Below, one piece after another: positions 3,301 through 10,277 of a stretch of DNA of 64,000 nucleotides. The notes below the pieces were generated by a model, which was given only the letters and a program-made list of their open reading frames with translations, made no database searches and was not told where the DNA came from. A program made the position numbers and the translations under genes. Source of the stretch: a virus (lineage: Duplodnaviria > Caudoviricetes); IMG/VR virus record IMGVR_UViG_3300014205_000174. One strand, 5' to 3'. How positions within the stretch are numbered: the stretch's first letter is position 1; each line of letters begins with the position of its first letter.

Positions 3301-4814
3301 TAATTACCGTGGAGCCATCTATTTTAGATGTGCTCAATGGCCTTTCGGATAAAGGATGCAGGGCGCTGATAGTTGGTGGCGCTGTCCGTGACGCTATTCT
3401 GGGCATCACCCCGAAAGATATAGACATAGAGGTTTATAACATAACCTACGCAGACCTGAGCGAATACTTATCGCAGTACGGGAGAGTTAACCTTGTTGGT
3501 AAGAACTTTGGGGTTATTAAGTTTAATCCGGCAGCAGGTGGAATGGAATACGACTTCTCCGTTCCAAGAAGGGAAAACAAGATAGGTGTAGGCCACAAAG
3601 AATTTGAAGTGACCTTTGATACCACCATGACCATAAAGGATGCCGCAATGCGCAGGGACTTTACGTTTAACTCCCTTGCGTATGACCCGGTATCCAATAC
3701 GGTGTATGATTACTTTAATGGCCTGATGGATATCCGGCTCAAAGTAATAAGGCACACGTCTGAAAAGTTTACTGAGGACGCGCTGAGAATACTCAGGGCC
3801 ATGCAGTTCCAAGCCAGATTTGATTTCACCATCGCTGAGGATACCAATACCTTAATGCGGGAAATGCTTACTACCTCTGATGAGTTTGCATCCTTGCCAA
3901 AGGAGCGTGTTTTCGAAGAGTGGTACAAGTGGGCCTCAAAGGGCGTCCGCCACGACCTTATATTCTCGTTCATGCGGGATTGCGGCCTTATCGACTGCTA
4001 CCCGGTATTAAAGGCGCTGGCAGAAACGCCGCAGGACGCTGTGTATCACCCGGAGGGGAATGTGGAGGTGCACACTACCTTATGTCTGACTTATATGGAC
4101 TCTATCTTGTCCCGGATGCCGGATATCCCGGCTGACGAGAAAGTAGTGCTGGTAATGTCCACGCTGCTTCATGATGTCGGTAAGCCTGCAACTACAGAGG
4201 AGCAGCTAAAGAATGGCAGAATGACGATTACAAGCAATGGCCATGAGGCATTGGGCGGTAAGATGTGTCATGATTTTTTACCTTCGCTTGGGTTCCATAA
4301 AGATTTGGTAGACCCTATAGCTAATATTGTAGCTAATCATTTGGCTGGCGTGAATATTACCATGATACCGCATGAGAGTGGCAGGGTAAAGGCAGTAAAG
4401 AAGCTAAGTAAGCGATTGTACCCGGCAACTATCCAGCAATTGCTGCATGTGATGGATGCAGACAGTAATGGGCGTGGCTGGGAAGAATACAAAGAACCTA
4501 CCGGTGCAAAGGAGCTGACGACCATAGCCGCAGACATAAACGTGACGGACAGGCCCTATGAATTTATACTTCTGGGGCGTCACCTTATAGAAGCAGGGCT
4601 AAAGCCGTCTCCTGCATTCGGGGAGATTTTACGTAAAGCAAACGAGGCCCAGTTAAACGGCGAATTTAATGATATTACCGGTGGCAGGCAGTGGCTGAAG
4701 GATAATTTGGATAGCTTTGTCAATGGCGGCATTATTAGTGCACCAGTTGATTTGTTTGCCGACTCGCCTGGTGCACCAGTTGTAAATAGTGCAGTGCCGG
4801 ACTTATTTCAATAA
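345..4814 (+). CDS. polyvalent polyprotein: topoisomerase IB catalytic domain + ParB-like + ART-PolyVal ADP-ribosyltransferase + GNAT + ParB-like + class II CCA-adding nucleotidyltransferase with HD domain
   Basis: TopoIB residues RVGN, GKSG, KDLR, GH, QY. ParB-like LIDGFHR and VTNGHHR. ART: SKVVDSKGQPLIVYHGT..GFWFS..PVYLCIKNP..QIK. GNAT: HRRHGYGRSLY. CCA: VGGAVRD..KDIDIEV, RRDFTFN, EDALRILRAMQF. HD: YHPEG..HT..LLHDVGK. Confidence 0.9.
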   Translation: MGVTKATKNKPTSKKPSAAKAGVVLPVPATPAQLRRRWNKKTSQVEKLANNIQSLRYNLTTDMKSDDQKVFLTALCVKCMELTGERVGNDESAANGHRGITGLLKSQVKVEGNKVSFRYTGKSGVNQDKSVTDEKLADGIRRAKEISKAKYLFCTDDGFKIKNDRVNRYLADFEITAKDLRGFSANRWLIQKLVANDIADEEKDRKKDFNAFAKVVAAKVGHGTGMLKNQYLIPGLEKAYVEEGKIIDIKDIAGYKKGGGVEKMEKGGVVAKKESTKKPSPSEPAGKTIKYSEFKEDIQTFIFQFLEDSGAPDKILDNLYRARFVVKPYPIKNISPEVNEASLDKDRGVQHAAKFKKDKYQPVIFFNNKLIDGFHRAYSEKQKGASVLYGIELSDVLHEKKAELKAGGQVSKPDPFNEWFAGSKVVDSKGQPLIVYHGTDAENITTFNIDLVRDKFGFWFSDDKEFSEMFGTTAIPVYLCIKNPHVISKEKWDDIRRAHAKDAVWFASWRDQLISKGKDALIIESSDTTFAGTKIRNPEIYAVFHPTQIKLADGSNTTFDGNNPDIRFEKGGHIYRSVGMEGYLVGKSRCPYIGKEKEIDAYDTDIRCFVSETNDTYRFIYVVNKKNVSVLHIQKEGADWVIRNAFTLEHHRRHGYGRSLYLEAQKHLRRVVFSSNLSQEGKAFKENVTLEMHIGNNTEIGRIDDETDTQFQIKGTWYAKWIIKPAAVAEDNEGILVPDKIKPTMIISAFSNEMDWDKVERYADIMKESGMEHGFPAISGYPIIIDENEIGDQFLTGEEVSEHHVGQLAWKVTNGHHRSLGAIKAALPWIDVELDYSTVTNMERHKRTNGKYYESGGITEDDEPKSTLDQLKEDVSACRNFDIFRGRIALREPDEVNEIMTVLGLEKATTREIGDINLKKLKDFYTQEKRIVNERRKIRGNEAAAIRTEKNVENIFDLAKILGDDMDKAVLDYEEKKAAIKYPVQLITVEPSILDVLNGLSDKGCRALIVGGAVRDAILGITPKDIDIEVYNITYADLSEYLSQYGRVNLVGKNFGVIKFNPAAGGMEYDFSVPRRENKIGVGHKEFEVTFDTTMTIKDAAMRRDFTFNSLAYDPVSNTVYDYFNGLMDIRLKVIRHTSEKFTEDALRILRAMQFQARFDFTIAEDTNTLMREMLTTSDEFASLPKERVFEEWYKWASKGVRHDLIFSFMRDCGLIDCYPVLKALAETPQDAVYHPEGNVEVHTTLCLTYMDSILSRMPDIPADEKVVLVMSTLLHDVGKPATTEEQLKNGRMTITSNGHEALGGKMCHDFLPSLGFHKDLVDPIANIVANHLAGVNITMIPHESGRVKAVKKLSKRLYPATIQQLLHVMDADSNGRGWEEYKEPTGAKELTTIAADINVTDRPYEFILLGRHLIEAGLKPSPAFGEILRKANEAQLNGEFNDITGGRQWLKDNLDSFVNGGIISAPVDLFADSPGAPVVNSAVPDLFQ

Positions 4815-4834: not shown

Positions 4835-7336
4835 ATGTCAGTAAAAACTTTACCAAAACCAAATAGGGGTACTGGGTACCTGGCTGGCAAGCAGAACGGC
4901 AAGACTGTTATACATACAGATGGCGACCTTGGGGGCGTACTCGTTGGTGCGCGGCACAGCGATGGCGGCATACCTGCTGTCAACGAGAGCACCAATAAGC
5001 CGCTGGAGGTGGAAAAGGGTGAGGTGAGCATTACGTCTAAGGCCGTGACCAATACTGAAGTATATAATTTTGATGGGCAAGAAATGACCGCTAAGGAAGT
5101 GCTTTCGAAAATAAATAGTGACGCCGGCGGGGTTAAGTTTAAAAAGGGCGGTACGGTTGAGCGTACCTATAGCCTGAATGGTCAGCAAATGACCGATAAG
5201 CAGATTGAGCAAAAACTGCATGGGAATAAAATTGAAGACAAAAGGGACGGGAATAAAATTTCCTACTCCGGTGGCGAAATTATAATTACCCGACCCGCTG
5301 TTATGTCTAAGGAGACCCATAATTTCTGCGGTAGTCAGCTTACGAACTTTCAAATCCTATCTAAGATTAATGTGGATAGTGGCGGCATAGCCTTTGCGGA
5401 TGACAATGCAGACGTATCAGTAAAGCCTAATGACCTGGAATATGAATTTGGTGGGAAGGTCATGAAGGGATATGAGATAGTTGAGCAATATGCATGCGGA
5501 TGTAAAATGGAAGATGGTGGTGTGGTGAATGATTATCCAACTGTAAAGTTATCAACCATCAAGAAGCTGCAATGGTATGTGCGTCCTGACGGCAAGACAG
5601 AGTTACAGGCGGAAATTAATGGGGAGCATAAAAAAGCCGTATTTGATGATGCCGATAATAAAATAGGCTATTATGGTTTATGTAATACTGCGGACAATGC
5701 ACTTAAGTTACTTGAAAAGTATTTTAAGATAAAAATAAAACGCGATAAGTATCCTGGGTACTTTGATTCTGGTGGTGAAATAGCAGACACCGACTATGAA
5801 ATAATTCCCGCAGAGAATAGCGGGCGTGGCGTGACAGAAAAAGTTCGTATTACTGATGATAAAGGCAGGGTGGCCGAATATTCTATTTTCGGCGGCGATA
5901 TACCTTATGCCATACAGTGTGCGCGGCAATCATTAAAGTGGCAGCAGGAAATTGACGATATAGTTGGCCCTGAAGGGGATTTATCTGAATATGCACAGTC
6001 TATTTATGACAATGCGCTGACCAGGTATAAAAAAGCGGATGATAGAAAGAAAAAGGAACTATTGCGTAAGCTCAGGTTTAATATATCCATGATTAGGCCC
6101 GTTCTTAATTCAGTACAGGCTGGCAGTATTGAAAACATAGAATTTGTCCGCGCCGGTGAAAAATTCCTCAAAGACCACGCCCCTGATTTCATGAGACATG
6201 GTGGTGTCGCAGAAGGCGGCAGGCAGTCAAACTTTGATTTCCTCAGTGAAAAAATATCCTCTGGTGATTTAATCATTGACCGTAATGGCATAGTGAGAAC
6301 ATACGCATGGCATAGCGGTGATGGCAGGCTCGTCGTTGAATCCGATAATATACCAAGCCGCCATGGGCCAGTTACTATGTACAAAATAAAAGTAGACGGT
6401 GTTGAAAAAGAAACTACCGATGATTACGCCATGGCCCTGAATCATACGCGGGAATATTTCTTAAAGCATCAGGCTGGCTCTCACATGGAAGAAGGGGGCG
6501 TTATAGAAAGCCTTACTCCTCAGCAGCAATATGACATAGGGAATTACCTGCCAGTTAGAATAGGAGGCATAAATAATGGGTGTGCCTGGGCTGACGTATT
6601 TAATGACGAGGGCCTGCTATCTTCGGAGCCGAAGTCGCTGGATTACTATTATCAGATTGCCATTAAAATAAAACCCGGAGCGGCATACCTTGAAAGGGAG
6701 GGGTTCTGGGATGATTTCGCAGACCGCATGGAAGAGTTAGGGCGGCCGTTGTCGTATGAGCAAGGCGGTAGGCTCCAGGGTCGGGAAAATTGCACTTACG
6801 AGCAACTGGTTGCAAAATATCCAATGCGTGACGGCTATAGCATCGGCAATCTCCAGCTCGATAATGCTGCAACGGGTAAGACTACACCCTATTGCGTTGT
6901 AAATAAAAAAACCGGTGTATTAAATAAGCATGGGCGTGATGAAATGGAAGTTGTAGCATATTACCAGCAGATAGGGCAAAATACACTGCAACTATGCGAA
7001 AATCCATATGCTGCACGTAGCCAGGAGAAAGCGTTGGATAAGGACGTTATTGAAGATGTGTCCATAGAAATGGCTGATGTTAGTCAGGATAGTATGGAAG
7101 ATAATATAGCAGAATGCATAAAAAACCAGAATGCTCTTTACAAAAAAGTCAAGGCATCGAACTGGGACAGGCTTGCGAAAGCTACTTTTTATAGCATGAA
7201 ACTTACTGAAGCAAAGGCTAATTTCAGTACGTATCAAAATATAGAAGGGGAATTCATGTCGGAACTAATGAATATGTGCGATTGGTTGATGAACAAGTGG
7301 CAGAATGCGCTTGACGAGGTGCGGGTGCAAAAGTAG
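4835..7336 (+). CDS. modular polyprotein of unknown function with GG-delimited modules
   Basis: 833 aa; duplicated N-terminal unit (GE..IT..AV..E..NF.G..T..ILSKIN.D.GG); separators FKKGG, YEFGG, MEDGG, FDSGG, MRHGG, MEEGG, YEQGG. Confidence 0.75.
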   Translation: MSVKTLPKPNRGTGYLAGKQNGKTVIHTDGDLGGVLVGARHSDGGIPAVNESTNKPLEVEKGEVSITSKAVTNTEVYNFDGQEMTAKEVLSKINSDAGGVKFKKGGTVERTYSLNGQQMTDKQIEQKLHGNKIEDKRDGNKISYSGGEIIITRPAVMSKETHNFCGSQLTNFQILSKINVDSGGIAFADDNADVSVKPNDLEYEFGGKVMKGYEIVEQYACGCKMEDGGVVNDYPTVKLSTIKKLQWYVRPDGKTELQAEINGEHKKAVFDDADNKIGYYGLCNTADNALKLLEKYFKIKIKRDKYPGYFDSGGEIADTDYEIIPAENSGRGVTEKVRITDDKGRVAEYSIFGGDIPYAIQCARQSLKWQQEIDDIVGPEGDLSEYAQSIYDNALTRYKKADDRKKKELLRKLRFNISMIRPVLNSVQAGSIENIEFVRAGEKFLKDHAPDFMRHGGVAEGGRQSNFDFLSEKISSGDLIIDRNGIVRTYAWHSGDGRLVVESDNIPSRHGPVTMYKIKVDGVEKETTDDYAMALNHTREYFLKHQAGSHMEEGGVIESLTPQQQYDIGNYLPVRIGGINNGCAWADVFNDEGLLSSEPKSLDYYYQIAIKIKPGAAYLEREGFWDDFADRMEELGRPLSYEQGGRLQGRENCTYEQLVAKYPMRDGYSIGNLQLDNAATGKTTPYCVVNKKTGVLNKHGRDEMEVVAYYQQIGQNTLQLCENPYAARSQEKALDKDVIEDVSIEMADVSQDSMEDNIAECIKNQNALYKKVKASNWDRLAKATFYSMKLTEAKANFSTYQNIEGEFMSELMNMCDWLMNKWQNALDEVRVQK

Positions 7337-7338
7337 GT

Positions 7339-7779
7339 TTATTGTTCACTGCATGGCGGGTGGCCATATCGGGAAAAGTACCGGAGCGGGCGCATCATTT
7401 TGCCCTTAATCCAAAATCCCCAGTTCCGTAATGGTCGGCCAGTGATTAATATTGTCCAGCATCCACCTTTTTCTACATCTACATAATGTTTATGTAGTGC
7501 GGGCCGGTACCGGATACAGCCACGAGTAAGTTGCTCCTTCACAATTACACCGTCTTTTGATTCGGATACATCAGTATAGCTGCCACTTAAAACCAATGTA
7601 ACAAACCACCAGGCATGGTCGTGAAGATACCTTTTATCGTCACTCCTTAAAAAGTGATGTATGCGAATGGAGAAGCCGAATAATATCAGCACCCAGCGGT
7701 AGGCATATGGGCAGGATTTTTCGCCTAACGGCTCATTCCACCTGAGCTGAATGTTTTTTGTTTTCCAGAAAGGTTTCAT
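7339..7779 (-). CDS. cupin-fold protein
   Basis: IHHFLRSDDKRYLHDHAWWFVTLVLSGSY...HKHYV...WTILITG pattern of phage cupin-like proteins. Confidence 0.7.
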   Translation of the reverse strand: MKPFWKTKNIQLRWNEPLGEKSCPYAYRWVLILFGFSIRIHHFLRSDDKRYLHDHAWWFVTLVLSGSYTDVSESKDGVIVKEQLTRGCIRYRPALHKHYVDVEKGGCWTILITGRPLRNWGFWIKGKMMRPLRYFSRYGHPPCSEQ

Positions 7780-8309
7780 CGTTTATATATTCTAAGCATT
7801 GCAGTAGGTACAGTGCGGTCTTTTTCCATAAAGGTATTGTCTGGCAGCATATGGAGGGAGTATTCTTTGTCAGATAACCACTCCCTGAATTTCACCTGGA
7901 TAGGTTCGTTATTTGTCAGCCAATACGGTGATGTGAGCGTCACCAATAATCCTTTCTTCTTCAGGTGGCTGTACATTTTTTCTATATGCAGCACATCGGT
8001 ATTGCCTTTAAAGGGAGGACATGCAATAATTCTGTCGAACTTGATATCTGTTTTGAATTCAAGAAAGTCGGCGTGGTAGATAGTTCTTGATGGGTTGGTC
8101 ATTGCCCCTAAAGAAAGATAGCGACATTTTTCTTTGTTCAATTCCACCATATGATACTGCATGCCGGTGAAAGAATAGCACCTATCTATAGTGTCAATTA
8201 TTTTACCCATGCCTGCTGATGGTTCAAGTAAGGTCATGTTGTCCGACAAGGCAGCCATGTTTATTAAGCCCTTGCAAACGCTATGGGGCGTTTCTCTTAT
8301 TGTGCTCAT
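7776..8309 (-). CDS. SAM-dependent N6-adenine-type methyltransferase-like protein (motif IV is CPPF)
   Basis: LEPSAGMG motif I, VELN, DFL, FDRIIACPPF. Confidence 0.8.
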   Translation of the reverse strand: MSTIRETPHSVCKGLINMAALSDNMTLLEPSAGMGKIIDTIDRCYSFTGMQYHMVELNKEKCRYLSLGAMTNPSRTIYHADFLEFKTDIKFDRIIACPPFKGNTDVLHIEKMYSHLKKKGLLVTLTSPYWLTNNEPIQVKFREWLSDKEYSLHMLPDNTFMEKDRTVPTAMLRIYKR

Positions 8310-8330
8310 TGAATGTAAGATTTGAAATTA

Positions 8331-8374
8331 AAAAGTGGCAATGAAATAGTAAACTAAACTATCACATTGCCACT
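8331..8374 (-). terminator. intrinsic terminator downstream of the tRNA
   Basis: AGTGGCAATG...CATTGCCACT inverted repeat followed by a T run on the - strand. Confidence 0.65.
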
Positions 8375-8384
8375 CACATCATCG

Positions 8385-8546
8385 TCGCGCTTCATGGGCT
8401 CGAACCACGGGCCTCCACCATTGAAACTCAAAAGCTCCGGCATTATTTACACAAAGGCCAGCTTGCAATCCGGCTCCCATGCTTTAGGGCGTTTACTATT
8501 AAGTTTGCGCATCAGGGTGACGCTCTACCAACTGAGCTAAAGCGCG
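8385..8546 (-). tRNA. tRNA with an about 89-nt insertion in the anticodon loop; identity ambiguous (GAT or TCA); CCA not encoded
   Basis: Acceptor CGCGCTT/AAGCGCG+A; D arm GCTC-AGTTGGTA-GAGC; anticodon stem TCACC/GGTGG enclosing 96 nt (8420-8515); T arm CGTGG-TTCGAGC-CCATG. Confidence 0.8.
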
Positions 8547-8583
8547 ATTTATTTAAAGAACTTGTTTGATTTGAATAGTGTAT

Positions 8584-8600
8584 TGCAAAGTGCGTGCCAA
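8584..8600 (-). promoter_or_regulatory. sigma-54-type -24/-12 promoter upstream of the tRNA
   Basis: TTGGCACGCACTTTGCA matches YTGGCACG-N4-TTGCW. Confidence 0.7.
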
Positions 8601-8627
8601 ACTTTCTACCTGTCGCACAAAGGTTTG

Positions 8628-8978
8628 TTAATACCCATCTGCATCGAAAATCGGAAAGAATAATCTATTATCTTCTGTCCAAAAACCCTCAATTACTCTC
8701 TTGTATAAAGTTGTTACTTCAATCTCTTTGGGTGGTGGTATTTTAGCAGATGGATATATTTCCTGAAAATCACACTCCCACATGCAAGCAGCAATGTTTT
8801 TTTTATTGTCAAGTAAATCAACAAATGAATAAGATTGCCAAGAAGCCCTATTTACTCCATTAACTTTCTTAGTTGGTTTGCTATGGAATATGACTATGCA
8901 GTTATAGTGTCCACCATATGACCCTATCCAAACAGGGCGAGAAGAAATCTTCGGTAATTTCAGTTTTACATGATTCAT
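8628..8978 (-). CDS. hypothetical protein
   Basis: 116-aa ORF co-oriented with its neighbours. Confidence 0.55.
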   Translation of the reverse strand: MNHVKLKLPKISSRPVWIGSYGGHYNCIVIFHSKPTKKVNGVNRASWQSYSFVDLLDNKKNIAACMWECDFQEIYPSAKIPPPKEIEVTTLYKRVIEGFWTEDNRLFFPIFDADGY

Positions 8979-9008
8979 TTTACAATAGCTTTAAGTGCGT
9001 CATTAATG

Positions 9009-9323
9009 TTATGCGGCCACCCGCTTGTAGCTAATAGTATAGATGTCATGTATGGGTACGTCGATAAACCCGCCATTGGTTTCCGGGTCTGTATCTTCGT
9101 CATTTATGTTTTCCTGCCGGTGGTGGTCTACGTTGAACTGGTACCCCTCCGCCTGAAATGAATCTTCGCCCAGGTTGTTCATTACACATTGGATAACTCC
9201 ACCGTTGATATCACCATGGCTAAAATGGAAGTAATAAGCATCTCCGTACTTTTCCAGGATACGCTGTATGGTAGCTTGATGTGTTTCTGCTACAGTATCG
9301 GTATTTGATTGTATCGTTGTCAT
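9009..9323 (-). CDS. hypothetical protein (start revised to ATG at 9323)
   Basis: MTTIQSN... lies just downstream of the sigma-54-type promoter; the longer ORF call runs through the promoter and a terminator. Confidence 0.6.
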   Translation of the reverse strand: MTTIQSNTDTVAETHQATIQRILEKYGDAYYFHFSHGDINGGVIQCVMNNLGEDSFQAEGYQFNVDHHRQENINDEDTDPETNGGFIDVPIHDIYTISYKRVAA

Positions 9324-9348
9324 AAAATAAACGTTGATACTTAGGTAA

Positions 9349-9365
9349 TGCAATTGGCGTGCCAA
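9349..9365 (-). promoter_or_regulatory. sigma-54-type -24/-12 promoter
   Basis: TTGGCACGCCAATTGCA. Confidence 0.7.
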
Positions 9366-9691
9366 ACTTTGGCAATCCCGTAATATTATTGCCAAACTTT
9401 TAAAACACAAAAGCCCCCCGGAATCCGTTGGGCTTTTGCTTTGATTTAGAACTTGTACGCTTGCGGCCATTTCCTGCCATTTCCGCCCGAGCTTGTCCAG
9501 TATGCTCGGTTCGTTTCTTGAAAGCTGCGGTATGTGGCCACCTTCCCGTCGCTTTCCTTTTAATCTTTCTCTTAAATCAGTACTACAAAATATAAATCAA
9601 ATATAACAAATTTCATGCCAAAATATATTATTGTTATAATCCGATTTGTCTCGGTTCCACTTTTTTAATAAATTTACAGGAAAGATTCAAA

Positions 9692-10234
9692 ATGACACCA
9701 GATAAAGTAAAGAAAAGAATTTCCCCATACCTTGAAACCATTACAGAAGCATGTATATTTTATCCTTTATTGGATACTAAAGGATATGGCAGCATTCAAT
9801 ATAGGGTGCCAGGGAAGAAAGTGCATTACAGAGCGCATAGGGTCTCTTTTGAATTAGCAAATAACTGCGAATTACTGCAAGCAGATGTAATATTACACTC
9901 CTGCGATAATCCAGCATGCATTAACCCGCGCCATCTTACTAAGGGTACTCACGAAGATAATCAGCGGGATAAGATGGCTAAGGGCAGGCAGGCCAAGGGT
10001 AAAACCAATGGCAGATACGTGCATGGTTATTATTCAAAGTTTGAGCCTGTGGCAAAACCTGTTCCGGATTTTCAGACTTTATGTAACAGAAGTATTTCTC
10101 TTGAAACTGCAAAAGCGATTAAAAGCAGAATTAAAGTCGGCGGCTGCAAGTTAATAGACCTATCTAAGGAGTTCGGCATACCGTACCAAACTATAAAAGA
10201 TATTAGTGCAGGAAGGGCATATAAAAACGTATAG
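9692..10234 (+). CDS. HNH homing endonuclease
   Basis: GYGSI..AHRVSF..LHSCDNPACINPRHL..GTHEDNQRD plus a C-terminal HTH-like segment. Confidence 0.9.
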   Translation: MTPDKVKKRISPYLETITEACIFYPLLDTKGYGSIQYRVPGKKVHYRAHRVSFELANNCELLQADVILHSCDNPACINPRHLTKGTHEDNQRDKMAKGRQAKGKTNGRYVHGYYSKFEPVAKPVPDFQTLCNRSISLETAKAIKSRIKVGGCKLIDLSKEFGIPYQTIKDISAGRAYKNV

Positions 10235-10253
10235 CTGTCCAAAATTTTGATTT

Positions 10254-10277
10254 TTGGCACGAGTTTTGCTATATTTG
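10254..10277 (+). promoter_or_regulatory. overlapping sigma-54-type promoter and Bacteroidota -7 box upstream of tmRNA
   Basis: TTGGCACGAGTTTTGCT (10254-10270) and TATATTTG (10270-10277). Confidence 0.65.

What the first reader, a model, noticed from the sequence alone, without database searches (positions are those of the whole stretch)
8385..8546. tRNA with a 96-nt anticodon loop offering two alternative anticodons (GAT or UGA-reading TCA)
Seen: canonical acceptor, D and T arms, with its own promoter and terminator, but the anticodon stem encloses 96 nt. The loop starts CT-GAT-GC and ends TT-TCA-AT, and each end could form a normal 7-nt loop. The 89 extra nt are too short for a typical group I intron. 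Inference: an unusual mini-intron, a splice-dependent suppressor, or an unspliced tRNA-like decoy against anticodon nucleases.
Basis: partly seen in the sequence, partly recalled or inferred. Interest (0 to 1): 0.7.

Follow-up and report, generated by a model that had tools for sequence, protein, structure and literature searches.

The report
Phage tRNA-like RNA with enzyme partners
This is a real, conserved phage gene for a transfer-RNA look-alike whose anticodon arm is lengthened by a structured 89-base insert; in unrelated phages it sits beside the same two uncharacterised enzymes, so it looks like a new RNA-plus-enzyme module, not a broken tRNA or an ordinary intron.

Summary
On the minus strand at 8546-8385 lies a tRNA frame whose anticodon stem encloses 96 nt. 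It has a sigma-54-type promoter element and a strong terminator.

It is not debris. I found 17 distinct relatives in viral and metagenome contigs, plus one degenerate variant. All share an invariant C1-G72/A73/C74 acceptor end, a tRNA-Ile-like body and an invariant CUGAU after the anticodon stem. All carry an 84-200-nt insert with a covarying core: helix P2, an A-rich internal loop (UAAA opposite GAAUAA), and hairpin P3/P4 whose loop holds a self-complementary hexamer.

The UCA "second anticodon" is not conserved, so the suppressor idea falls. No intron class fits, and no single splice point gives a normal Ile loop in all members.

The RNA travels as a cassette with a small M.TaqI-like methyltransferase that lacks a target-recognition domain, and with a small cupin metalloprotein (over 1000 unnamed homologues). 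In every cupin locus fetched from the viral collection, the cupin lies beside tRNA-like genes, mostly of this C1 type.

My best reading (about 50%) is an unspliced, non-decoding RNA partner of these enzymes. A spliced tRNA-Ile is the main rival. No expression data exist.

The scan had noted this same stretch before in overlapping windows. It had no look-alike on other DNA.

The parts
8585..8599 (-). sigma-54-type -24/-12 promoter element (TGGCACG-N4-TTGC) about 40 nt upstream of the RNA 5' end
   Evidence: Exact match. It is one of 3 exact copies in the window, all within about 1.7 kb (8585-10269). Function is inferred.
8384..8546 (-). gene for the tRNA-Ile-derived long-arm RNA (C1 at 8546, A73 at 8385, conserved C74 at 8384)
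   Evidence: ARAGORN -i; covariance model R1 scores it 127 bits; frame covariation.
8511..8515 (-). invariant CUGAU (positions 32-36, anticodon GAU) directly after the anticodon stem 5' strand (8516-8520)
   Evidence: Identical in all 17 distinct insert-bearing members.
8424..8506 (-). structured insert core. P1 is 8499-8506 with 8424-8431. The A-rich internal loop is UAAA at 8483-8486 (with C60 at 8487) opposite AAAUAA at 8443-8448. The P3/P4 hairpin is 8449-8482.
   Evidence: Family-consistent fold. P2/P3 covariation: 84% paired, 0/500 shuffles, slid controls 20-48%.
8462..8469 (-). 8-nt apical loop A-UUGCAA-G: a self-complementary hexamer flanked by purines
   Evidence: A palindromic hexamer (UUCGAA, UUGCAA, UGUACA; also GUCGAC, seen by eye) sits in a hairpin of 12 of the 16 RNAs scanned by script, and by eye in L161 and L170 too (with A5). 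Dimerisation is inferred only.
   Evidence: The TCA is not conserved in the family.
8329..8375 (-). intrinsic-terminator-like hairpin plus U tract, between the RNA and the methyltransferase gene
   Evidence: Fold of about -23 kcal/mol followed by UUUUU. The hairpin also appears in Rfam chance hits.
7776..8309 (-). 177-aa SAM methyltransferase: M.TaqI-like catalytic domain without a target-recognition domain, motif IV CPPF
   Evidence: 105 homologues. Model pLDDT 93.9; best PDB match M.TaqI, TM 0.78. Its alignment is A1.
7339..7779 (-). 146-aa cupin metalloprotein (HxH...HxH, many invariant Arg). Its start overlaps the methyltransferase stop by 4 nt.
   Evidence: Alignment A3, 58-75% identity. 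Cupin fold. 1171 unnamed homologues. PHROG 4786.
3366..4406 (+). context: CCA-adding (PolyA_pol head + HD) module inside the 1489-aa polyvalent protein. It could supply the CCA end that the RNA gene lacks.
   Evidence: Pfam hits. The link to this RNA is inferred.

Best explanation
The element is a functional gene for a tRNA-Ile-derived RNA that is most likely neither spliced nor used for decoding.

Its acceptor stem (invariant C1-G72, A73, C74), D arm and T arm keep the tRNA shape. So it can plausibly be cut out by RNase P and 3' trimming, and be given CCA by the host or by the phage's own CCA-adding domain.

The 89 extra nucleotides turn the anticodon arm into a long rod. From the stem outward it has a helix P1 closing the insert, a short helix P2, and a conserved A-rich internal loop (UAAA opposite GAAUAA/AAAUAA). 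Then comes a roughly 12-bp hairpin (P3/P4), closed by an invariant G.U pair and tipped by a purine-flanked self-complementary hexamer that may let two RNAs kiss tip to tip.

The RNA works together with the two genes that travel with it: a target-domain-less N6-adenine-type methyltransferase and a small metal-binding cupin.

Inferred division of labour: the tRNA-like end is what the cupin system recognises, because cupin neighbours always keep that end while the anticodon arm varies. The insert is the docking or target site of the methyltransferase, because its A-rich core occurs only where the methyltransferase is present.

Shown: the gene, its conservation, its structure and its linkage. Inferred: no splicing, enzyme-RNA contact, dimerisation and any downstream role.
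For: Family and structure:
- 17 distinct insert-bearing relatives plus one degenerate variant come from many different metagenome samples. All have C1-G72/A73/C74, invariant CUGAU and compensatory changes in every tRNA stem.
- The insert core covaries. P3 is 97% paired with 5 pair types at two positions, and its G.U, A-U and U.G pairs are nearly invariant. P2 has 3 covarying pairs. Overall 0/500 shuffles reach the observed score, and slid controls reach 20-48% against 84%.
- G.U pairs in the stems show that selection acts on RNA, not DNA.

Linkage:
- The RNA is co-oriented with and next to the methyltransferase in nearly all close relatives, in two different gene orders. The flanking genes are otherwise unrelated.
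- The cupin follows the methyltransferase in 15 of 20 loci.
- Starting from the cupin instead, all 16 viral loci have tRNA-like genes beside it. Of distinct tRNA(-like) genes within 1.7 kb of a cupin, 22 of 38 start with C1, against 7 of 68 elsewhere (p=4e-7).
- The A-rich core motif is found in 14 of 18 methyltransferase-positive contexts and in 0 of 5 methyltransferase-negative ones (p=0.004, not corrected for relatedness).

Against simple splicing:
- Position 37 is G in the window and four relatives.
- The 3' junction varies, so no one cut site gives CUGAUAN in all members.
- Cupin-linked relatives have 6-9-nt or otherwise non-decoding loops.
- Some members encode CCA, so the 3' end matters.
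Against: - No RNA data exist for this phage, so the mature size is unknown.
- Invariant CUGAU, and the commonest form CUGAUAA, is exactly a tRNA-Ile(GAU) anticodon loop. That would be expected if a mature tRNA-Ile were the product.
- The enzymes may act on DNA or on something else, and may only share an accessory-gene island with tRNA genes. Some methyltransferase+cupin loci show no such RNA within 3 kb (L166/167, L168).
- Helices P1 and P2 are weak in the window copy.
- Palindromic loops can also be read as short tetraloop hairpins.
- The association statistics do not correct for shared ancestry.
Confidence: 0.5

Rival explanations
1. It is an intron-bearing tRNA-Ile(GAU). The conserved insert is a new kind of small intron, removed by unknown phage or host proteins or by its own chemistry. 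The methyltransferase and cupin modify the precursor, using the insert as a handle, much like intron-dependent modification in eukaryotes and archaea.
For: - CUGAU is invariant, CUGAUAA is the commonest form, and the body resembles tRNA-Ile.
- P1 brings the two ends of the insert together next to the anticodon stem.
- The gene lies in tRNA arrays in several relatives.
- Phage tRNAs with unexplained introns have been reported (PMC6784885).
Against: - There is no ribozyme or intron family hit in the window or in five relatives.
- There is no conserved bulge-helix-bulge and no tRNA-shaped insert.
- No RNA ligase, RtcB or splicing endonuclease domain was found in the 49 window ORFs scanned.
- No single junction gives a canonical loop. 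G37 appears in five members if the cut is after position 38, and U37 in two if it is after position 36.
- No insert-free allele was found.
- Relatives beside the cupin have non-decoding loops.
- ATA, which GAU cannot read, is the phage's commonest Ile codon.
Confidence: 0.27
2. It is an unspliced tRNA mimic that acts alone as a decoy or sponge for a host tRNA-targeting defence, such as an anticodon- or acceptor-end-directed nuclease or transferase. The neighbouring methyltransferase is an ordinary anti-restriction DNA methylase, and the cupin is unrelated cargo of the same accessory island.
For: - The cassette sits in a small minus-strand, lower-GC island of an otherwise plus-strand genome.
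- The methyltransferase domain also occurs inside polyvalent counter-defence proteins and resembles DNA methylases.
- The window strongly avoids restriction-type palindromes.
- The acceptor end is conserved while the anticodon arm is non-standard.
Against: - The three parts are the only genes shared between otherwise unrelated contexts.
- The cupin is more conserved than the methyltransferase and is always beside a tRNA-like gene.
- A plain decoy would not need a covarying internal-loop core that tracks the presence of the methyltransferase.
Confidence: 0.15
3. It is a splice-dependent opal (UGA) suppressor that uses the UUUCAAU end of the insert as its anticodon loop.
For: The window copy ends UU-UCA-AU before the 3' stem strand.
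Against: - The UCA end is present only in the window and the closely related L174/L176/L083/L183 group. Others end CGUU, AAAU, CGAU, CUAA and so on.
- All long ORFs are intact under code 11. Their stops are TAA 28, TAG 12, TGA 4.
Confidence: 0.02
4. It is a dead tRNA gene disrupted by inserted debris.
For: Default tRNA finders and Rfam do not call it.
Against: The insert is conserved and covaries in 17 relatives. The gene has its own promoter-like and terminator-like signals and conserved gene partners.
Confidence: 0.01

Closest known systems
'Enigmatic' introns in tRNA genes of Lak megaphages (Devoto et al. 2019, PMC6784885)
   Same: These are phage tRNA genes with an unexplained insert in the anticodon loop. 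Bacterial tRNA finders miss them, and no Rfam class fits.
   Different: The Lak inserts vary by presence or absence between genomes, and one is itself tRNA-shaped. Here the insert is always present and has a conserved non-tRNA fold (ARAGORN finds no tRNA in any insert). It is also tied to two protein genes.
Group I introns in bacterial tRNA anticodon loops (tRNA-Leu UAA, tRNA-fMet, tRNA-Ile CAU, tRNA-Arg; from my own knowledge)
   Same: The insert is in the anticodon loop of a bacterial-type tRNA, and the flanking exons keep the tRNA fold.
   Different: Known group I introns are about 200 nt or more, with a P1-P9 core. This insert is 89 nt in the window and 84-200 nt in relatives, and has no Rfam intron hit.
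Archaeal/eukaryal protein-spliced tRNA introns, including intron-dependent modification (review PMC4090602; PMC1635329)
   Same: The insert lies next to the anticodon. The idea that an insert can guide modification enzymes to the precursor also applies.
   Different: There is no conserved bulge-helix-bulge and no splicing endonuclease or ligase in the window. Those introns lack a conserved sequence core.
tRNA-like non-coding RNAs such as bacterial Y RNA-like YrlA and tmRNA (from my own knowledge)
   Same: These are tRNA mimics that keep the acceptor/T-arm features but do not decode. The long helix replaces or extends the anticodon arm and binds a protein partner.
   Different: There is no Rfam hit to either. 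YrlA has its ends in the long stem, not in the acceptor stem. This RNA has a full cloverleaf frame with an intact D arm and an anticodon-like CUGAU.
HIV-1 dimerisation initiation site and other kissing loops (review PMC7357161)
   Same: Both have an apical loop holding a six-nucleotide self-complementary sequence flanked by purines.
   Different: This is only a sequence-level likeness. Dimerisation was not tested, and the palindrome could instead close a tetraloop.
M.TaqI-type (gamma-class) N6-adenine methyltransferases, and KsgA/Erm rRNA adenine methyltransferases
   Same: The partner methyltransferase has the same catalytic fold (TM 0.78 to M.TaqI; KsgA/Dim1 are also among the top hits) and the same motif I.
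   Different: It has no target-recognition domain (177 aa in all). The catalytic NPPY motif is (A/C)PPF. Its substrate is unknown.

Membership tests
canonical tRNA (Rfam RF00005) | acceptor, D, anticodon and T stems with tertiary-contact nucleotides | tested here: met
   All four stems are present, with U8, G18G19 and a UUCGA T loop. Stems covary in relatives.
canonical tRNA (Rfam RF00005) | 7-nt anticodon loop; score above the Rfam gathering threshold | tested here: not met
   The loop is 96 nt. The window scores 14.8 bits against a threshold of 29, on a partial match. Two relatives pass only with the insert treated as an insertion.
canonical tRNA (Rfam RF00005) | aminoacylation and use on the ribosome | not testable with these tools
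   This needs charging assays or acid-gel Northern blots.
group I intron in a tRNA | P1-P9 catalytic core, about 200 nt or more, match to the Rfam intron model | tested here: not met
   The insert is 89 nt. No intron or ribozyme hit appears at E<=10 in the window region or at E<=5 in five relatives.
BHB (archaeal-type) tRNA intron | 3-4-3 bulge-helix-bulge at both junctions, conserved across homologues | tested here: not met
   A relaxed search found a G.U-dependent match in the window, and a match elsewhere in the RNA in two near-identical relatives (L176, L083). It found none in the other 13.
BHB (archaeal-type) tRNA intron | splicing endonuclease and RNA ligase available | tested here: inconclusive
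   No such Pfam domain was found in the 49 window ORFs scanned. The other 147 kb of the genome could not be read.
tRNA-shaped ('matryoshka') phage tRNA inserts noted earlier in this scan | the insert itself folds as a tRNA from its first base to its 3' tail | tested here: not met
   ARAGORN finds no tRNA in any of 16 inserts. The insert fold is a rod with an internal loop.
kissing-loop dimerisation element (DIS-like) | self-complementary hexamer in an apical loop, flanked by purines | tested here: met
   The window loop is A-UUGCAA-G. Relatives have G-UUCGAA-A or A-UUCGAA-G. GUCGAC occurs in L179, L184 and L303, seen by eye.
kissing-loop dimerisation element (DIS-like) | RNA forms dimers that depend on the loop | not testable with these tools
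   This needs native gels with loop mutants and compensatory pairs.
gamma-class N6-adenine methyltransferase (partner gene) | Rossmann fold with SAM motif I | tested here: met
   LEPSxGxG is invariant. Foldseek gives M.TaqI at E 8e-12, TM 0.78.
gamma-class N6-adenine methyltransferase (partner gene) | catalytic (D/N)PP(Y/F) motif and a target-recognition domain | tested here: not met
   The motif is CPPF or APPF (APNF in L304). The protein ends after the catalytic domain.
cupin metalloprotein (partner gene) | double-stranded beta-helix fold with His-rich metal site | tested here: met
   The model has pLDDT 88.9. Hits include oxalate decarboxylase, quercetinase and TM1459 cupins. H53, H55, H96, H98 and H140 are invariant.

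The most novel reading that the evidence does not exclude
The RNA, the methyltransferase and the cupin form one ribonucleoprotein machine of a kind not described before. In it, a tRNA-derived RNA with a free CCA end and a dimerising long arm is the specificity or carrier subunit for two bare catalytic domains. For example, it could aim a methylase that has no target domain, or carry an aminoacyl group that the enzymes tailor. The more than 1000 unnamed cupin homologues would then mark a widespread phage system built around C1-type tRNA look-alikes.
Probability: 0.2. Interest if true: 0.9.

Novelty: new variant of a known kind. Interest (0 to 1): 0.72.

Why it matters
Phage tRNA genes are usually read as codon-supply or as anti-nuclease spares. 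This case is a tRNA-derived RNA whose anticodon arm has been rebuilt into a conserved structured domain, and it is inherited together with two enzymes of unknown substrate.

If the three work together, this would be a new RNA-enzyme module of phages. It would assign a first function to a cupin family of over 1000 unnamed proteins, and it would explain why tRNA finders miss a class of phage genes.

Even on the conservative reading it matters. It would be the first phage tRNA insert with a defined, covarying fold and dedicated protein partners, which makes the long-standing puzzle of 'enigmatic' phage tRNA introns directly testable in vitro.

Tried and rejected
- Sequencing runs: one DNA run (landfill metagenome) holds the stretch.
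- Complex prediction on methyltransferase + cupin gave no verdict.
The roughly 100 methyltransferase and over 1000 cupin homologues from Logan/ENA therefore could not be placed on contigs.
- The genome search by locus handles: records not held. No whole genome is held for the window.
- BLAST of 7300-9500 against phage and plasmid records gave no match.
- Exact pattern of the 5' half in viral contigs gave 0 hits.
- The neighbouring small ORFs have no relatives in viral contigs.
- A loose motif scan of viral contigs returned 111 hits, 110 of them chance. A stricter one found only 3 contigs already known.
- Species genomes hold neither the RNA pattern nor the methyltransferase.
- HNH-gene relatives (L001/L002) carry other odd tRNAs, not this family.
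- Thermodynamic folding alone is uninformative: z -0.17 for the whole RNA and +0.29 for the insert.
- P1 is not statistically distinguishable from shuffles in AU-rich members.
- Idea that the loop palindrome marks a DNA methylation site: TTGCAA is neither avoided nor enriched in the window (23 observed, 25.8 expected), so this says nothing either way.
- A cupin fused to another domain was sought. One 312-aa protein turned up, and its extra part is unrelated to the methyltransferase.
- The UAA/GAN internal-loop motif is recalled from memory only. I could not find a paper to cite.

Full report
WHAT IS THERE

The minus strand from 8546 to 8385 reads as a complete tRNA frame:
- acceptor CGCGCUU/AAGCGCG;
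- D arm GCUC/GAGC with the usual AGUUGGUA loop;
- anticodon stem UCACC/GGUGG;
- a 5-nt variable loop;
- T arm CGUGG-UUCGAGC-CCAUG;
- discriminator A73, with no encoded CCA.

The anticodon stem encloses 96 nt that start CUGAUGC and end UUUCAAU. ARAGORN in default mode and Rfam at gathering thresholds call nothing in the whole window.

An exact sigma-54-type element (TGGCACG-N4-TTGC) lies at 8599-8585. The window has three exact copies, all within about 1.7 kb (8585-10269). A hairpin of about -23 kcal/mol followed by U5 lies at 8375-8329.

WHERE IT SITS

The window belongs to a contig of about 211 kb. Earlier notes of this scan read it as a very large Bacteroidota virus. One DNA run from a landfill metagenome holds it. 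Almost all genes are on the plus strand. The stretch 7339-9621 is a minus-strand, lower-GC island. On the minus strand the order is: two orphan ORFs, the RNA, its terminator, a 177-aa methyltransferase (8309-7776), and a 146-aa protein that overlaps the methyltransferase stop by 4 nt (7779-7339). Upstream on the plus strand, a 1489-aa polyvalent protein contains a CCA-adding module.

IT IS A FAMILY, NOT DEBRIS

The methyltransferase has 105 homologues. I fetched loci around its closest relatives from viral and metagenome contigs. Almost every one has, on the same strand and usually within 0-250 nt, a tRNA gene with a large anticodon-loop insert. With one more found from the cupin side, there are 17 distinct sequences, plus a degenerate variant in L084-086.

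All 17 share these features:
- they begin with C1 paired to G72, followed by A73 and C74; one group encodes the full CCA;
- they have a tRNA-Ile-like D arm, variable loop and T arm;
- they read CUGAU immediately after the anticodon stem, most often as CUGAUAAG.

Across 13 of them, 14 of the 21 frame pairs keep pairing through changes on both sides. This includes all five pairs of the anticodon stem that spans the insert. By contrast, the 3' end of the insert varies (CAAU, CGUU, AAAU, CGAU, CUAA and others). The UCA is seen only in the window and one related group.

THE INSERT HAS A CONSERVED FOLD

Aligning the core of 15 members (A5) shows two helices around an A-rich internal loop:
- P2 has three covarying pairs.
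- The loop is N-UAAA on the 5' side and GAAUAA (AAAUAA in the window) on the 3' side.
- P3 has 5 pairs, 97% paired. Positions 2 and 5 each show five pair types. Its G.U, A-U and U.G pairs are nearly invariant.

For the two helices together, 84% of cells pair. None of 500 shuffles reaches the observed covariation, and sliding the partner by 1-3 columns drops pairing to 20-48%.

In the window, P3 runs on into P4, giving a hairpin of about 12 bp (8482-8449) with one A.C mismatch. A helix P1 (AAACUUAA with UUGAGUUU) closes the insert. P1 exists in most members but is statistically weak in these AU-rich sequences.

The apical loop is eight bases: a purine, a self-complementary hexamer, a purine. 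It is A-UUGCAA-G in the window, and G-UUCGAA-A or A-UUCGAA-G in most others. GUCGAC occurs in three others. This is the design of retroviral kissing loops (PMC7357161). A tetraloop closed by one extra pair would also explain part of it, so dimerisation is a hypothesis. The stems contain G.U pairs, which shows that selection acts on RNA rather than on a DNA palindrome. The A-rich loop recalls the UAA/GAN internal-loop motif of large RNAs; that is from memory and was not tested.

THE GENE PARTNERS

An all-against-all comparison of ORFs from 20 loci shows that only two protein families are shared across them: the methyltransferase (20 loci) and the 146-aa protein (15 loci). Other clusters are confined to three loci or fewer, apart from antisense ORFs over the methyltransferase gene. 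So the three parts move as a cassette between otherwise unrelated phage genomes of 30 to 390 kb. Two gene orders occur: RNA-methyltransferase-cupin, and methyltransferase-RNA-tRNA(CUA)-cupin.

The methyltransferase:
- It models with pLDDT 93.9.
- It is closest to the catalytic domain of M.TaqI (TM 0.78), then to KsgA/Dim1 and type I M subunits.
- It has no target-recognition domain.
- Its catalytic motif is CPPF or APPF instead of NPPY.
- The same domain occurs inside large polyvalent phage proteins.

The 146-aa protein:
- It is a cupin with invariant HxH...HxH and many invariant arginines. Members are 58-75% identical, so it is more conserved than the methyltransferase.
- It has 1171 homologues at E<=0.001. 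None has a name or a Pfam family.
- Atlas neighbours are mostly viral.

Starting from the cupin instead, all 16 viral loci have tRNA-like genes beside it. This includes five loci without the methyltransferase. There, the neighbouring C1-G72/A73 tRNA-like genes have 6-9-nt loops or different inserts that cannot decode. Of distinct tRNA(-like) genes within 1.7 kb of a cupin, 22 of 38 start with C, against 7 of 68 elsewhere in the fetched loci (p=4e-7). The A-rich core motif occurs in 14 of 18 methyltransferase-positive contexts and in 0 of 5 negative ones (p=0.004). Neither figure is corrected for relatedness.

SPLICED OR NOT?

For splicing:
- CUGAU is invariant, and CUGAUAA is a textbook tRNA-Ile loop.

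Against splicing:
- No Rfam intron or ribozyme family matches the window or five relatives.
- No bulge-helix-bulge is conserved, and no insert is tRNA-shaped.
- No ligase or endonuclease domain was found in the 49 window ORFs scanned.
- No single cut position gives a canonical loop in all members. Cutting after position 38 leaves G37 in five members, and cutting after position 36 leaves U37 in two.
- The wider cupin-linked set is plainly non-decoding.
- The phage's commonest Ile codon is ATA, which GAU does not read.

I therefore favour an unspliced RNA, at about even odds. Splicing remains the main rival.

The opal-suppressor idea is not supported. The UCA is not conserved, and the ORFs need no recoding: their stops are TAA 28, TAG 12 and TGA 4.

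HOW IT MOST LIKELY WORKS (INFERRED)

- The tRNA-like end lets the transcript be processed and given CCA like a tRNA. This end is the constant feature that goes with the cupin.
- The insert is the extra module that goes with the methyltransferase. Its invariant adenines in an internal loop are the kind of site that adenine methyltransferases of the KsgA/Erm type use.
- The palindromic tip may pair two RNAs.
- What the modified RNA, or the RNA-enzyme complex, then does is open. It could act in counter-defence at the tRNA level, carry an amino acid, or aim the enzymes.

LIMITS

- There are no expression data.
- The rest of the genome could not be read.
- The association tests are not phylogenetically corrected.
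- The same stretch had been noted by other first readers in overlapping windows. The scan held no look-alike on other DNA.

Noticed in passing
window 1-64000: GATC does not occur at all in 64 kb. CTGCAG, CAGCTG, GGCGCC and GGGCCC also occur 0 times against 9-15 expected. This is strong avoidance of restriction-type sites.
   Followed up: partly
window 7339-9621: The cupin, the methyltransferase, the long-arm RNA, two orphan ORFs and a reported orphan small RNA form a minus-strand island. Its GC is about 0.40, in a genome that is otherwise transcribed on the plus strand.
   Followed up: partly
L001:5501-5587 and L002:5499-5585: In about 101-kb viral contigs, a tRNA-Lys(UUU)-like gene with a hairpin inserted in its D loop lies directly upstream of a tmRNA gene and an HNH endonuclease gene related to window 9692-10234.
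   Followed up: no
L084:1483-1560, 2504-2580 (same in L085, L086, L307-L309, L317): Next to the cassette lie two odd genes: a C1-G72 tRNA-Ile(GAU) with a 9-nt anticodon loop, and a tRNA-like gene whose anticodon loop is replaced by a UUCG-capped extended stem.
   Followed up: partly
L161:1074-1076; L304 about 3535: The methyltransferase genes of two relatives contain an in-frame stop (TAG in L161; the codon in L304 was not checked), and tRNA(CUA) genes lie next door. These phages probably read TAG as an amino acid.
   Followed up: partly
L312:3275-3421: A C1-type tRNA-like gene beside a methyltransferase and cupin carries its large insert in the D loop instead of the anticodon loop. The insert includes a CUGAU and an ACGAUCGU palindrome.
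   Followed up: no
L304:3194-3356: Two normal-sized C1-G72/A73 tRNA-Ile genes lie directly upstream of the methyltransferase-cupin pair. One is GAU with pyrimidines at positions 37-38. The other is UAU with an enlarged variable region.
   Followed up: no
window ORFs (44 scanned): ATA is the commonest isoleucine codon (502 ATA, 423 ATT, 198 ATC). That is unusual for a bacterial-type system unless a dedicated AUA decoder exists.
   Followed up: no
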